Source: Promethearchaeota archaeon (lineage in GTDB: Archaea > Asgardarchaeota > Lokiarchaeia > Sigyniarchaeales > SOKP01). Taken from it: a stretch of 64,000 bases of DNA. Numbering within the stretch: position 1 is the stretch's first letter; each line of letters starts with the position of its first letter. The notes below the pieces were generated by a model. It was not told the origin of the DNA. It did not search any database and saw only the letters and a list, made by a program, of their open reading frames with translations. The translations under genes were made by a program, and so were the position numbers. Location of the stretch: contig JBHLOC010000023.1 in the NCBI GenBank assembly GCA_048940925.1, positions 1 through 64,000 on the forward strand, read 5' to 3'. This document shows positions 54,351 to 61,502 of the stretch, in pieces.

Positions 54351-54932
54351 TTAATTCATCTTTATACATTTTTTTTTAAATTTTGATATAGATTTTTCAC
54401 AATGTTGTTTTAATTCATTTAACTCATTAATTTTTCGGGATATTAGTGAATTTTGAAATTCTAAAAATTCTAATTTATCTTCTGTAGATTTTTCTTGATA
54501 ACTCTCGATTTCATTATATTCAAAAGGAAATCTAAAAAGTTGAATTTTATCAAATAGTATAGGTAATAATTCTTTATCAGTTCCAATAGTATACGTTATA
54601 AGAGTATTTATTGCATTTCTCAACTTCAAATACTCTTCAAGAATAATCTTTAAAGTTTCTGTTCCTTTTTTTGTTATCGTATAAATCTTTCTAATCCGGC
54701 TGTCATAAGATTTCTCAGTATATTCTACAAGTTGTTCGTTATACATATTATTAAGTACCGTATATATCGTGGAAAGAGGTGCTTCTAATACTCCGAAGGT
54801 CAAATCTTCTATTATCTTTTTAAGTTTATAACCGTGACAAGGTCCTTTTTCAAGTATTAATAATATTTGAATTCTAATAAAACCCTTTCTTATTGCTTTA
54901 TCAAAATTAATCGCAATTTCCTCAACTTTAAT
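54351..54932 (-). CDS. PadR-family transcriptional regulator, probable ATT start
   Basis: In-frame extension of the 54803 ORF gives KAIRKGFIRIQILLILEKGPCHGYKL...STIYTVL...RKIYTITKKG. No ATG/GTG/TTG lies between the upstream stop and 54803; GGTGAT precedes ATT ATT. Confidence 0.8.
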   Translation of the reverse strand: MKVEEIAINFDKAIRKGFIRIQILLILEKGPCHGYKLKKIIEDLTFGVLEAPLSTIYTVLNNMYNEQLVEYTEKSYDSRIRKIYTITKKGTETLKIILEEYLKLRNAINTLITYTIGTDKELLPILFDKIQLFRFPFEYNEIESYQEKSTEDKLEFLEFQNSLISRKINELNELKQHCEKSISKFKKKCIKMN

Positions 54933-55190
54933 AATATCACCGAAAAATTATTTTAAAAAAAACATATCAATTTCTGAAATATAACCAATTTTGATATATA
55001 AAATTTTTTGATATAATAAGATTTAGCTTTTAAAGATGTCCTTTTATAAGTAATAGATTTCGTGTATTATGAATATAGGAATATTTTCTACAATTATAAA
55101 AATTTCTTTAAAGCAATATATAGAAAATTTATTTAGGTAGTGAATTATGTAATATTTCTACAATTAAATAAATGTTGAATGTGAAAATAA

Positions 55191-57833: not shown

Positions 57834-58703
57834 TTATGATAAATCTTTAATAGCTTCTTTTAATATTGCTATTATTTTCTCACGATACATTGGTTCAATA
57901 GCAATCATACCATAAGTTTTAATACGACGTTTTTCACTCGACAATATTTTCTCACAAAATTCAGGAGTTAGTCTATTAGGTAAATCCTGTTTATTTGCAA
58001 TACCTAAAACCATTTTGTCCTGAAAAAATTTATCCAACAAATCATGAATAATTTCTTTTGAACCATTAATATTTTCAAAAGTTGAATCCGTAACAAGTAG
58101 AGCAATATCGGAACCTGTCAATAAACTTTTCCACAAAGATCTAAATTGAGCTTGACCTGCAAAATCCCACAGCGTGACCGTTCTTTCAAATTCATCTCCC
58201 TCATAAGACACAATATCAGCTGTGATTGTTGGCACATATTCAAGATTAACATCTTTACCAGCTATAAGACGAGTTAATGTAGTTTTACCTACACCCCCAA
58301 ATCCTATTATGGAGATTTTAATTGCTCCTAGTATTAAATTATCTAATTCTTTTTCAAATTCATAAAATATGGTTCTATTTCCAGCCCAACTTCCATCTTC
58401 TAATAATTTCCCATATTTCTCCATGAATTTGGCTCTTATACTGAGAATCTTAGAATTAACTAGAGAATCATCATCTTCTAAATCTGTACAAACAACAATA
58501 ATGATGGTATCAATTATCGTATAGAAATATTTAAAATCTTCCGTTTGAGTACTCTTAATATCACTCTGGCTAATCTCTTTCATAAATCCTGAAAAAGCAC
58601 TCAAAAAACCAGCTAATAAATCTCTATCTACCTCAGAGGTCCCATAATTTCTGAATAACAATGATTTTCCGTCTCTTGTTAAGATGTTAACATACTGTAT
58701 CAA
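57834..58703 (-). CDS. Longin domain-small GTPase fusion (Asgard eukaryotic signature protein)
   Basis: Longin VNILTRDGKSLL...DLLAGFLSAF; GFGGVGKTT, YVPT, WDFAGQAQF, NKQD. Confidence 0.88.
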   Translation of the reverse strand: MIQYVNILTRDGKSLLFRNYGTSEVDRDLLAGFLSAFSGFMKEISQSDIKSTQTEDFKYFYTIIDTIIIVVCTDLEDDDSLVNSKILSIRAKFMEKYGKLLEDGSWAGNRTIFYEFEKELDNLILGAIKISIIGFGGVGKTTLTRLIAGKDVNLEYVPTITADIVSYEGDEFERTVTLWDFAGQAQFRSLWKSLLTGSDIALLVTDSTFENINGSKEIIHDLLDKFFQDKMVLGIANKQDLPNRLTPEFCEKILSSEKRRIKTYGMIAIEPMYREKIIAILKEAIKDLS

Positions 58704-58836: not shown

Positions 58837-59409
58837 ATGGAACCTGAAAAAACTGATGAGAAGCTTGATAATTTTGCTTCAGTGCTTGAAAAATTCGGGC
58901 TTGATATTATAACTAAAATGGGACAGACAAATTTAAAAATAAATATGCTCACTGATAAAATCGATGAATTAAGTAAAGCTACTCTCGATGTAAAAGCACT
59001 TTTACCTCAACTAACTAATGTAATCGAAAATCAAAAAATTTTGGAAGCTGAACTTGATTTAATTAGAACCTTAATTCAAAAATCAACTATAACATATCAA
59101 CCGAATGAAATTGAAAGTGAGGGCGTAGAGAGGGATACTTCTGCAACTGATAAAAAAAAAGCGATTATCGATCAATTTCACACCTTAGAAAAGTATATTG
59201 AAGAAAATGATGGCCCTGAACATGTGACAACAAGTTTAGCTAATATTAAAGAAGAGATTTTCGTATTTACTGGAGGTCATAGAATTCTTTATGAAATTGG
59301 ACAATTTACTAGTAAAATGAATGGTTTGGACACCCTTAATGATGATATAAAAAGGGAACTAAAAGAAAAAATCACATTCTGGATCAATAAATTGTCAGTA
59401 AAAGGATAA
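58837..59409 (+). CDS. Hypothetical protein: coiled coil plus C-terminal helical domain
   Basis: N-terminal heptad pattern; C-terminal ~80 aa aligns with the C-terminus of the 13985..16165 protein. Confidence 0.65.
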   Translation: MEPEKTDEKLDNFASVLEKFGLDIITKMGQTNLKINMLTDKIDELSKATLDVKALLPQLTNVIENQKILEAELDLIRTLIQKSTITYQPNEIESEGVERDTSATDKKKAIIDQFHTLEKYIEENDGPEHVTTSLANIKEEIFVFTGGHRILYEIGQFTSKMNGLDTLNDDIKRELKEKITFWINKLSVKG

Positions 59410-59433
59410 AATAAAGTTATAAAAAAATTTCTT

Positions 59434-60045
59434 TTATCTTTCTTCCAATTTTGAAAGTAAGGTAAGTTCTCCTATTTTATGAAATATTAGTTTAACATTA
59501 TCTCCCGTTAATGCTGAGGTTTCGAAAAAAGGAGCGTTCAATTTCTGGCTAAGGTGTTCAGCCATTGGTAATATTATTTTTCTCTCGTCTTTTAAATCTA
59601 TTTTATTGCCGACTAAGATTTTTGGAATACCTGAAAGTCCATATTTAACAGCTGTATTCCACCAATTATTTATATTCGAGAATGAACTAGACCTTGTAAT
59701 ATCATAAACTAACATCATCCCATCAGCTCCGTTAAAATATGGACGATGAAGCATGTAGAATTGCGGATAGACGCAATAGAGGAGAGCTCAATTACTTTGT
59801 CCAGCAATATCCCATACCATAAGAGTTATGTCCATATCTTTTCCCATATCGTTCTTTACTGTTACTTTCTCCTTGGTAATGTTAACTCCAACTGTCGGAA
59901 TATATTCATATTCAAACTTTTCAGCACAGAAAGTCTTCAGAAGACTCGTCTTACCCACAGCGGGATCTCCGATTACAATAATCTTGTATATCATCTCAGA
60001 GGGTTTGTGGAACACTAATTCCTCTTCTTCTTTATCTGTAGTCAT
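59434..60045 (-). CDS. Rab-like small GTPase in two exons (60045..59797 and 59766..59434; 193 aa after splicing)
   Basis: G1 GDPAVGKT, G2 YIPTVG and G3 WDIAGQ in exon 1; PQFYMLHRPYFNGADG, G4 NKID and G5 ETSA in exon 2; same frame, separated by 30 nt. Confidence 0.85.
59767..59796 (-). other. Candidate bulge-helix-bulge mRNA intron (30 nt, contains in-frame UGA)
   Basis: AGUAAUUGAGCUCUCCUCUAUUGCGUCUAU. Central helix GGAC/GUCU, bulges AA|A and AU|C, intron stem GUAAU/AUUGC plus GAG/CUC, exon stem AUUGC/GCAAU. Confidence 0.75.
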
Positions 60046-60959: not shown

Positions 60960-61502
60960 TTAGCCATTCAGCTTCATTTGTTTTGAAATTTTAAATTTTG
61001 ATGCTTTGTTGTCTTCTCGGGATATAAAATAAATAGTATTTAGAGAGAATGTGATTTCCTCCCAATTTTTCTGTAATTTGTTTATCAATTTATTTAATTT
61101 GTCTTTCCCCATAATCTGTCCAACGCTTAAATGAGGTCTAAATCCCTTTTTGAATTTATTTACATCATTACAATCAGGTACAATATTTAGAATTTTTGCC
61201 TGTAAAGTTATGATAGATTCAATTGGTTCAGGATCAAGCCATAAAGTAAATCTTTGTCTTCCATGACCAAAGTAATCAAATTTTCTTAAAGAAATCTTAA
61301 ATTGTTTAATAGGTTCGCATATTTCTGAAAAAATCCTCTCCAGTTTCGAATATTCATTTTCAGGCGTAAATGGGTATAATAGCGTTATATGTGGCATCCA
61401 TCTATTGATTTGACGATCATATAGTTTGCGAATCTTTTGAATTGGTGCCCACTTTTCTATAGGAGGGATTATAACTACAGCAGAGTTATAGGATTTATTC
61501 AT
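60960..61502 (-). CDS. 2H phosphoesterase / 2'-5' RNA ligase family
   Basis: Two HxT/S motifs: PHITL and PHLSV. Confidence 0.88.
   Translation of the reverse strand: MNKSYNSAVVIIPPIEKWAPIQKIRKLYDRQINRWMPHITLLYPFTPENEYSKLERIFSEICEPIKQFKISLRKFDYFGHGRQRFTLWLDPEPIESIITLQAKILNIVPDCNDVNKFKKGFRPHLSVGQIMGKDKLNKLINKLQKNWEEITFSLNTIYFISREDNKASKFKISKQMKLNG

What the first reader, a model, noticed from the sequence alone, without database searches (positions are those of the whole stretch)
59755..59812. Bulge-helix-bulge intron in the mRNA of an Asgard Rab-like GTPase
Seen: the minus strand reads TGG GAT ATT GCT GGA CAA [AGT AAT TGA GCT CTC CTC TAT TGC GTC TAT] CCG CAA TTC TAC ATG, i.e. WDIAGQ[SN*ALLYCVY]PQFYM. 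Removing the 30 nt (59796..59767) gives WDIAGQPQF, the same G3/switch II spacing as the intact paralog at 57834..58703 (WDFAGQAQF), and a complete 193-aa GTPase with G1-G5. The RNA folds independently into a BHB: exon GGAC pairs with intron GUCU (4 bp); 3-nt bulges AA|A and AU|C; intron stem GUAAU/AUUGC, a U.U mismatch, GAG/CUC and a 5-nt loop; exon stem AUUGC/GCAAU behind one U.C mismatch (slightly relaxed, BHL-like). Established: archaeal splicing endonuclease EndA cuts after the second nucleotide of each bulge and RtcB ligates. That rule gives exactly the boundaries the protein needs. mRNA introns of this type are rare; the best-known case is crenarchaeal cbf5. Inference: this Asgard archaeon splices a protein-coding eukaryotic-signature gene, and the unspliced mRNA makes only an 85-aa truncation, so splicing could gate GTPase expression. 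Standard gene callers would miss this and report two fragments.
Basis: partly seen in the sequence, partly recalled or inferred. Interest (0 to 1): 0.97.

Follow-up and report, generated by a model that had tools for sequence, protein, structure and literature searches.

The report
tRNA-type mini-intron in Asgard GTPase gene
A small-GTPase gene of an Asgard (Loki-type) archaeon is interrupted by a 30-base insert shaped like the introns that archaea cut out of tRNAs. Related genomes show it is one of many such mini-introns that come and go in ordinary protein genes of this group, which papers describe for only one other archaeal protein gene.

Summary
Minus-strand 59796..59767 is a 30-nt in-frame insert carrying TGA inside a Ras/Rab-like GTPase gene (60045..59434).

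About 70 paralogs in this genome and about 80 orthologs elsewhere lack it. Removing it gives the GQPQF junction that all orthologs share, and a 193-aa protein 95.9% identical to an uninterrupted 193-aa relative.

The bulge-helix-bulge (BHB) cut rule, between bulge nucleotides 2 and 3, predicts exactly these boundaries. Homologous 30/31-nt inserts sit at the same site in six other lineages and keep the fold through compensatory changes. The 31-nt forms shift the frame, so read-through cannot rescue them.

The same orthologous gene carries BHB inserts of 30-31 nt (the 30-nt ones share one layout) at two other positions in other species. At least six other genes of this genome (an EF-2 paralog, RNase HII, GH38 and others) carry domain-splitting 30-nt BHB inserts.

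Host genes are under strong purifying selection (dN/dS 0.02-0.15). [quoted passage not shown] An independent metagenome contig contains the insert.

No RNA data exist, so splicing is inferred, not shown. The idea that splicing gates expression is unsupported. This scan had already noted similar introns in this genome and in other Asgard genomes.

The parts
59434..60045 (-). Whole Ras/Rab-like small GTPase gene (two exons plus a 30-nt intron). The spliced product is 193 aa, with G1 GDPAVGKT, G3 WDIAGQ, G4 NKID and G5 ETSA.
   Evidence: the 193-aa uninterrupted relative P0006 is 185/193 identical to the predicted spliced product
59797..60045 (-). Exon 1, 83 codons, ending ...WDIAGQ (CAA).
59767..59796 (-). 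30-nt BHB mini-intron: 1 nt of bulge 1, 9-bp stem arm, 5-nt loop, 9-bp stem arm, 4-nt H strand, 2 nt of bulge 2. It carries an in-frame TGA at 59790..59788.
59434..59766 (-). Exon 2, 110 codons plus TAA, starting PQFYMLHRPYFNG.
59799..59802 (-). Central helix H, exon strand GGAC (Gly codon plus the C of the Gln codon). It pairs with 59772..59769.
   Evidence: (pair 15-45 covaries: A-U in five sequences, U-A in one)
59769..59772 (-). Central helix H, intron strand GUCU.
59796..59798 (-). Bulge 1 (AA|A). The predicted 5' cut lies between 59797 and 59796.
   Evidence: cut rule between bulge nucleotides 2 and 3 as stated in PMC2738675
59766..59768 (-). Bulge 2 (AU|C). The predicted 3' cut lies between 59767 and 59766. 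A U.C mismatch (59803 opposite 59765) follows it, so this side is relaxed.
59773..59795 (-). Intron hairpin h': arms 59795..59787 and 59781..59773 (8 of 9 pairs, one U.U mismatch), loop 59786..59782.
   Evidence: (4 of the 5 lower-stem pairs show changes on both sides)
59804..59808 (-). Outer exon-exon helix h, 5' strand AUUGC. It pairs with 59764..59760 (GCAAU).
   Evidence: 76% of cells paired; partly dictated by the codons
59760..59764 (-). Outer exon-exon helix h, 3' strand GCAAU.

Best explanation
The 30 nt at 59796..59767 are an archaeal bulge-helix-bulge (tRNA-type) intron inside the coding region of a functional Ras/Rab-like GTPase gene.

Proposed mechanism:
1. In the pre-mRNA, the exon bases GGAC pair with the intron's GUCU to form the 4-bp central helix.
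2. This helix is flanked by the 3-nt bulges AA|A and AU|C, the intron hairpin (9-bp stem, 5-nt loop) and an exon-exon helix.
3. The genome's heterotetramer-type splicing endonuclease cuts between bulge nucleotides 2 and 3 on both sides. It has a catalytic alpha subunit on contig C58 and a non-catalytic beta subunit on C18.
4. RtcB (contig C40) joins the exons, giving ...GGACAA|CCGCAA... and a 193-aa GTPase. The 30-nt intron is probably released as a circle.

What is shown: the insert, its exact boundaries, the conserved and covarying fold, purifying selection on the host gene, and the presence of the enzymes.

What is inferred: cleavage, ligation and circularisation.

The intron is one member of a population of BHB mini-introns, mostly a stereotyped 30 nt, in protein-coding genes of this Lokiarchaeial genus. 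These introns are gained and/or lost quickly. I see no sign of a regulatory role.
For: 1. Boundaries. About 25 genus and order orthologs, about 80 metagenome orthologs and a 193-aa protein that is 95.9% identical all read GQPQF with no insert. The insert boundaries are unambiguous and equal the BHB-predicted cuts. The chance of this layout at a fixed position is about 1e-4.

2. Conservation with covariation. Homologous inserts sit at the same site in G044, G041 and L116 (30 nt) and in L139, L136 and L134 (31 nt).
- On alignment A1, 83.8% of cells pair, against 25-47% when partners are slid.
- Five pairs show changes on both sides, and 0 of 500 shuffles reach the observed score.
- The synonymous third base of the Gly codon covaries with the intron (A-U to U-A).

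3. The 31-nt variants shift the frame, and the stop codons differ between lineages. Only precise removal restores the protein.

4. Two further positions in the same ortholog carry BHB-register inserts of 30-31 nt. The 30-nt ones share the 30-nt layout; the 31-nt L118 insert keeps the central helix but has a poorly paired stem.
- Site A, before the P-loop: G069, L081.
- Site B, after TVGV: G018, L118.

5. In this genome, 30-nt inserts in the same BHB register split single Pfam domains of an EF-2 paralog, RNase HII, GH38, a thiolase and an AIRS-family protein, and one lies at the start of the catalytic domain of an AMP/thymidine-phosphorylase-like protein. A paralogous GTPase on C73 has another.

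6. dN/dS of intron-bearing alleles against their nearest intron-less alleles is 0.02-0.15, like the intron-less pairs. There is no other lesion in the gene and no intact second copy: the next paralog is 42% identical.

7. Enzymes.
- Two EndA paralogs are present.
- One keeps the catalytic Tyr/His/Lys and the KPR of the Crenarchaea-specific loop, including the Lys44 equivalent. Its best solved match is 3p1z_B (role of Lys44 in PMC3241643).
- The other has Tyr to Phe and His to Thr.
- One intact RtcB is present.
- Asgard EndA is reported as (alpha-beta)2 with this loop (PMC5829648).

8. The insert is real DNA. A 1252-nt contig from an independent study spans 59000-59885 with no gaps.
Against: - There is no RNA evidence of any kind. 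No RNA run holds this DNA.
- The motif is relaxed on the 3' side. A U.C mismatch separates bulge 2 from the exon helix.
- In three of the seven same-site introns the outer H pair is G.A, and in a fourth (L136) an inner H pair is C.A, so H has only 3 standard pairs in four of the seven.
- The nearest-neighbour model puts only about 19% of the ensemble in the BHB register. It prefers GGA paired with UCC, and the overall folding z-score is -1.63.
- A structure-only genome scan shows no excess over a mirrored control, 930 against 917. The genome-wide case therefore rests on coding context, where two of the eight candidates I tested were false positives.
- The GTPase is one of about 75 paralogs, so it is not demonstrably essential.
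Confidence: 0.85

Rival explanations
1. The insert is a dead insertion scar. The gene is a recently inactivated pseudogene, one of about 75 GTPase paralogs, and the insert is never removed.
For: The gene family is highly redundant. No RNA data exist. The intron is absent from most close relatives. The BHB is relaxed and is not the minimum-free-energy fold.
Against: - dN/dS is 0.019-0.047 against the nearest relatives, with dS above 1 and no second lesion.
- Homologous inserts persist at this site in seven divergent lineages with compensatory changes.
- Inserts of the same layout sit in RNase HII and other housekeeping-type genes such as an EF-2 paralog, whose domains they split. The cell must therefore be able to remove them.
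Confidence: 0.05
2. The insert is dealt with during translation: stop-codon read-through, TGA read as Sec or Trp, or ribosomal bypassing of the hairpin as in phage T4 gene 60. It is not spliced.
For: The insert is in frame in this genome, contains a stop two codons after the junction, and forms a hairpin, all superficially like gene 60. ARAGORN finds a tRNA-SeC gene in the genome.
Against: - The 31-nt homologues at the same site shift the frame, and stops vary between lineages (TGA, TAA, TAG).
- Read-through would put 10 residues into switch II that no ortholog or paralog has.
- Bypassing needs matching take-off and landing codons. Take-off would be CAA, but the codon before the resume point is UAU.
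- The covariation specifically supports the 4-bp helix between the two bulges, which bypassing does not need.
Confidence: 0.04
3. The insert is removed from the RNA, but by machinery other than EndA and RtcB, such as another endonuclease and ligase or a self-processing hairpin.
For: Cleavage by EndA is untested. A 2H-phosphoesterase / 2'-5' RNA-ligase-family gene lies about 0.9 kb upstream at 60960..61502. Several same-site introns have only 3 standard pairs in H.
Against: The conserved features are exactly those EndA reads: two 3-nt bulges 4 bp apart, with cuts between bulge nucleotides 2 and 3 giving the correct junction in every case examined. A 30-nt hairpin has no known self-splicing chemistry. 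An EndA with the broad-specificity loop and RtcB are both present.
Confidence: 0.05
4. The insert is an assembly or sequencing artefact.
For: The genome is a metagenome-derived assembly of 90 contigs with 8.4% estimated contamination.
Against: A contig from an independent study (run X13) spans the insert with 89 nt or more on each side and no gaps. Homologous inserts occur in six other assemblies from different projects.
Confidence: 0.01

Closest known systems
BHB intron of the cbf5 (pseudouridine synthase) pre-mRNA in Crenarchaeota (Desulfurococcales, Sulfolobales; Watanabe 2002; Yokobori 2009, PMC2738675)
   Same: - It is a short intron inside a protein-coding region.
- It is bounded by a BHB or relaxed BHB, with cuts between bulge nucleotides 2 and 3.
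- The host has a heteromeric EndA with the Crenarchaea-specific loop.
- The distribution shows lineage-specific gain and loss.
- Gene callers split the gene.
   Different: - The host lineage is Asgard (Promethearchaeota), not Thermoproteota.
- The host gene is a eukaryote-like small GTPase.
- The layout is a stereotyped 30 nt, shared with at least seven other genes in the same genome.
- There are three intron positions within one orthologous gene in a single genus.
- Turnover is much faster, with every carrier having an intron-less sister.
- cbf5 splicing is shown by cDNA and in vitro cleavage. Here splicing is inferred only.
[quoted passage not shown]
   Same: The recognition motif is the same and the enzymes are presumed to be the same. 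Both show many independent gains, and in both an intron can persist only where the exon sequence can supply half of the motif. ARAGORN finds only 34 tRNA genes in this genome, 22 of them with introns.
   Different: [quoted passage not shown] Splicing must restore a reading frame. That preprint does not mention mRNA introns.
EndA-processed intron in a 5' UTR of Haloferax volcanii (Schwarz et al. 2020, PMC7714728; appeared in my search, but my attempt to read it failed, so what it reports is from the title, the abstract and my own recollection)
   Same: It is a BHB-type element in an mRNA that is processed by the splicing endonuclease.
   Different: That element lies outside the coding region, so it neither splits nor restores an ORF.
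Translational bypass element of phage T4 gene 60
   Same: It is a short non-coding gap inside an ORF, with a stop codon just after the break and a hairpin.
   Different: That element needs matched take-off and landing codons and acts on the ribosome. Here the codons do not match (CAA against UAU), and the conserved and covarying features are those of a BHB.

Membership tests
Archaeal BHB (EndA-type) intron | [quoted passage not shown] | tested here: met
   GGAC/GUCU (one G.U pair) lies between AA|A and AU|C. The 3' side is relaxed by a U.C mismatch next to bulge 2. In four of the seven homologues H has only 3 standard pairs.
Archaeal BHB (EndA-type) intron | Flanking helices h (exon-exon) and h' (intron) | tested here: met
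   h' has 8 of 9 pairs with a 5-nt loop. h is the 5-bp AUUGC/GCAAU helix. h' covaries strongly, while h is largely set by the codons.
Archaeal BHB (EndA-type) intron | Cuts between bulge nucleotides 2 and 3 give a functional joined RNA | tested here: met
   The predicted junction GGACAA|CCGCAA gives GQPQF, identical to all intron-less orthologs and to the 193-aa protein P0006. The rule is stated in PMC2738675.
Archaeal BHB (EndA-type) intron | Structure maintained in evolution by compensatory change | tested here: met
   Across seven same-site introns, 5 pairs show changes on both sides, 83.8% of cells pair against 25-47% when slid, and 0 of 500 shuffles reach the score.
Archaeal BHB (EndA-type) intron | Host encodes the splicing endonuclease and an RtcB-type ligase | tested here: met
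   PF01974 hits twice: a catalytic alpha subunit and a beta subunit lacking the Tyr and His. PF01139 (RtcB) hits once and is intact.
Archaeal BHB (EndA-type) intron | Observed cleavage and ligation (spliced RNA, circular intron, in vitro cutting) | not testable with these tools
   No RNA run holds this DNA. An enzyme assay is a bench experiment.
Ras/Rab-like small GTPase (Pfam PF00071) | Match over the curated cut-off, with G1-G5 motifs in order | tested here: met
   Ras E=4e-42, 143.9 bits against a cut-off of 21.6, model positions 1-157 of 162. GDPAVGKT, T in switch I, WDIAGQ, NKID and ETSA are all seen.
cbf5 pre-mRNA intron family | Located in the cbf5 gene of Desulfurococcales or Sulfolobales | tested here: not met
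   The host gene is a small GTPase of a Promethearchaeota genome. It is the same kind of element but not a member of that intron lineage.
Translational bypass (gene 60 type) | Identical take-off and landing codons flanking the gap | tested here: not met
   The take-off codon is CAA, and the codon before the resume point is UAU.
In-frame recoding (Sec or read-through) | The insert stays in frame and its residues are retained in homologues | tested here: not met
   The 31-nt homologues shift the frame, and no ortholog or paralog has the 10 extra residues.

The most novel reading that the evidence does not exclude
Lokiarchaeial Asgard archaea carry a genome-wide, fast-turnover population of BHB mini-introns of about 30 nt, mostly of one stereotyped layout, in ordinary protein-coding genes. 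There are at least eight genes in this genome and three different positions in one GTPase ortholog within a single genus. Same-site introns are either lost dozens of times or move between alleles. If so, routine EndA/RtcB splicing of mRNAs, with intron gain and loss dynamics, exists in the closest prokaryotic relatives of eukaryotes.
Probability: 0.7. Interest if true: 0.9.

Novelty: new member of a known kind. Interest (0 to 1): 0.8.

Why it matters
In the papers I could search, EndA-dependent splicing of an archaeal coding region is documented for one gene only, cbf5 of Crenarchaeota (PMC2738675). It is not reported for Asgard archaea.

This locus shows, by comparative evidence, that a eukaryote-signature GTPase gene of an Asgard archaeon needs RNA splicing to be read. 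Such introns are also numerous and evolutionarily dynamic in this lineage.

This matters in two ways:
- **Annotation.** Gene callers split or truncate these genes. Both fragments of this one are in public protein sets as separate proteins.
- **Intron evolution.** It bears on how split genes and intron gain and loss could arise in the archaeal relatives of eukaryotes.

The locus also gives a clean test substrate. It offers one gene with three intron sites, close intron-less alleles as controls, and identified alpha and beta EndA and RtcB genes.

Tried and rejected
- **RNA evidence.** No RNA holder is listed for this DNA, so expression and splicing could not be examined.
- **Rfam and ARAGORN on the window.** Neither found anything.
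- **Plain folding statistics.** z = -1.63, and the minimum-free-energy fold uses a different register for the central helix. This is not useful as support.
- **Structure-only genome scans.** BHB hairpins showed no excess over a mirrored-topology control, 930 against 917 for the 30-nt layout.
- **Loose ORF-fusion scan.** It was swamped by junctions between neighbouring genes, 5454 against 5140.
- **Strict layout plus stops of both frames inside the insert.** Only this gave an excess, 19 against 9.
- **Candidates rejected by Pfam.**
  - C29:24950-24979 is the junction between two separate genes (Fe-ADH and AFOR).
  - Window 54924..54953 lies upstream of the PadR domain of its ORF and is not supported as an intron.
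- **Calibrating the cut rule on this genome's own tRNA introns.** This failed, because the ARAGORN intron calls in these heavily interrupted tRNA genes were too imprecise. I relied on the literature statement instead.
- **Intron as a repeated or mobile sequence family.** blastn-short of seven introns against the genome found only the introns themselves.
- **G019 ortholog with an internal TAA.** Its upstream half aligns poorly, so I did not interpret it.
- **L118 (site B, 31 nt).** Its central helix fits, but its stem does not fit the model cleanly.

Full report
**What is there**

On the minus strand the window carries a 612-nt gene (60045..59434). Its reading frame is broken after codon 83 (...WDIAGQ) by 30 nt (59796..59767) that contain an in-frame TGA at 59790..59788. 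The frame then resumes with PQFYMLHRPYFNG. A plain ORF listing gives two fragments, of 85 and 106 aa. Both fragments are on record as separately called proteins in public collections. Read through, the product matches Pfam Ras at E=4e-42 over nearly the whole model and shows G1-G5.

- central helix GGAC/GUCU;
- bulges AA|A and AU|C;
- an intron hairpin with 8 of 9 pairs and a 5-nt loop;
- the exon helix AUUGC/GCAAU behind a U.C mismatch.

**Is the insert real, and are its boundaries right?**

The genome (4.8 Mb, 29.6% G+C, 90 contigs) has about 75 Ras-like paralogs. Every one that aligns across switch II has a 10-residue gap exactly where the insert lies.

Orthologs from the same genus and order read WDIAGQPQFYMLHRPYFNG with nothing in between. 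At the DNA level the insertion can be placed in only one way. A 193-aa uninterrupted protein from an ENA metagenome is 185/193 identical to the product predicted by removing the 30 nt.

A 1252-nt contig from an independent study covers 59000-59885 without gaps, so the insert is in the DNA and is not an assembly artefact.

The cut rule for BHB motifs, between the second and third bulge nucleotides (PMC2738675), gives exactly these boundaries. In my own scan the full 30-nt layout (H 4/4, stem at least 8/9, loop 5) occurs about once per 10,000 strand positions. Its coincidence with a position fixed independently by homology is therefore significant.

**Comparative evidence for the fold**

Homologous inserts lie at the same site in two named Promethearchaeota MAGs (Loki_b32 and LW60_5; G041 and G044) and in four metagenome lineages. 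Three of the metagenome forms are 31 nt long and shift the frame, so no kind of read-through could rescue them.

I aligned the seven sequences (A1) and scored the common part of the BHB, namely h, H and the lower stem:
- 83.8% of cells pair, against 25-47% when partners are slid by 1-3 columns.
- Five pairs show changes on both sides.
- None of 500 shuffles reaches the observed covariation.

The third base of the Gly codon, which is exon sequence and synonymous, covaries with its intron partner (A-U in five sequences, U-A in one). The upper stem differs between the 30- and 31-nt forms but is fully paired in each form (and hand analysis).

**Not an isolated case**

The same orthologous gene carries other BHB-register inserts of 30-31 nt at two further positions:
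- before the P-loop strand in G069 and L081/L082;
- after TVGV in G018, the closest relative at 91% identity, and in L118. The 31-nt L118 insert keeps the central helix, but its stem fits the model poorly.

In each case the best BHB register equals the boundaries that the protein alignment requires.

Within this genome, my scan for this layout combined with an ORF-fusion test gave 19 hits against 9 for a mirrored control. I checked eight of these with Pfam. Five split a single domain: an EF-2 paralog, RNase HII, GH38, a thiolase and an AIRS-family protein. One lies at the start of the catalytic domain of an AMP/thymidine-phosphorylase-like protein. Two were false positives. A paralogous GTPase on C73 has one more such insert that the strict scan missed.

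The introns share layout but not sequence, and each is unique in the genome. Earlier notes of this scan list further candidates in this genome (aIF2-gamma, purA, gyrB, E1, mvk) and in other Asgard genomes. I re-found three of them independently and did not test the rest.

**The host gene is alive**

- dN/dS between each intron-bearing allele and its nearest intron-less relative is 0.02-0.15, the same range as intron-less pairs.
- For this gene the values are 0.019-0.041, with dS above 1.
- There is no other lesion and no second copy.

**The machinery**

The genome has two EndA paralogs.
- One aligns end to end with the catalytic subunit of the Aeropyrum pernix enzyme (3p1z_B). It keeps the catalytic Tyr, His and Lys and the KPR of the Crenarchaea-specific loop, including the equivalent of Lys44, which confers broad substrate range.
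- The other has Phe and Thr in place of the catalytic Tyr and His.

This is the (alpha-beta)2 architecture reported for Asgard archaea (PMC5829648). One intact RtcB is present. ARAGORN recognises only 34 tRNA genes, 22 of them with introns. That is in line with the heavy tRNA-intron load described for Asgard archaea.

**Evolution and function**

On a tree of 86 distinct orthologs, all six carriers of the site-C intron that are on the tree are singletons with intron-less sisters. That means six gains at one site or at least 24 losses (the tree rests on 579 nt and is only a guide).

Intron divergence (about 77% identity between this genome and G044 or L116) is similar to exon divergence (74-75%). 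This fits old vertical descent with frequent precise loss somewhat better than recent transfer, but I cannot decide between them.

The intron behaves like a tolerated passenger.

**Weak points**

- No RNA data exist, so cutting and joining are inferred.
- The motif is relaxed on its 3' side.
- Several homologues have only three standard pairs in H.
- Thermodynamic folding prefers another register for the GGA bases.

These points keep my confidence at about 0.85 rather than higher.

**Comparison with what is known**

The element works like the cbf5 pre-mRNA intron of Crenarchaeota and like non-canonical tRNA introns. It meets every sequence-level criterion of a BHB intron that I could test.

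It is not a member of the cbf5 intron lineage, because the gene and the phylum both differ. I found no paper in the searchable library that reports BHB introns in Asgard protein-coding genes.

Noticed in passing
G000 contig C73:29874-29903 (+), outside the window: A paralogous Ras-like GTPase (start 29839) is interrupted just before its P-loop strand by another 30-nt insert of the same layout. H is GATA/TATC, the bulges are AC|A and TA|A, the stem has 7 of 9 pairs and the loop is 5 nt. Removal gives KITLFGPGGVGKTS.
   Followed up: partly
L164, L165, L166, L167, L163, L168 (G000 C32:27895-27924, C40:190863-190892, C43:76068-76097, C64:13177-13206, C30:66095-66124, C77:31160-31189): Six other genes of this genome carry 30-nt BHB inserts inside, or at the edge of, single Pfam domains. 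They are an EF-2 paralog, RNase HII, a GH38 mannosidase, an AMP/thymidine-phosphorylase-like protein, an AIRS-family protein and a thiolase.
   Followed up: partly
L031:1663-1692 region (G018), L118, L075 (G069), L081/L082: Orthologs of the same GTPase in other species carry 30/31-nt BHB inserts at two other positions, after TVGV and before IIVIGD. The closest relative, G018, has the upstream one and lacks the one in this window.
   Followed up: yes
window 60960..61502 (-): A 180-aa gene of the 2'-5' RNA ligase / 2H phosphoesterase superfamily (PF13563, E=2e-34) lies about 0.9 kb upstream of the intron-bearing GTPase. Enzymes of this family act on 2',3'-cyclic phosphate RNA ends. The adjacency may be a coincidence.
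   Followed up: no
window 57834..58703 (-): An intact 289-aa paralog has a GTPase domain preceded by an N-terminal extension of about 125 aa with no Pfam match. Its position downstream of the intron-bearing gene is conserved in distant relatives (L136, L139, L157, L158).
   Followed up: no
window 58837..59409 (+): A 190-aa ORF between the two GTPase genes, on the opposite strand, has no Pfam family.
   Followed up: no
whole genome G000: ARAGORN finds only 34 tRNA genes, 22 of them with called introns of up to 89 nt, plus a tRNA-SeC at C3:50049-50141. Many tRNA genes are probably too interrupted to be recognised.
   Followed up: no
G000 C40:183124-183154 (L169) and C62:7960-7991 (L170): A 31-nt BHB candidate appears to join GHKVD|KIELIIMGGT, which looks like an Elp3 / radical-SAM protein. 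A 32-nt candidate sits in a long ORF on C62. Neither was checked by Pfam, because both shift the frame and I had no reference for the joined sequence.
   Followed up: no
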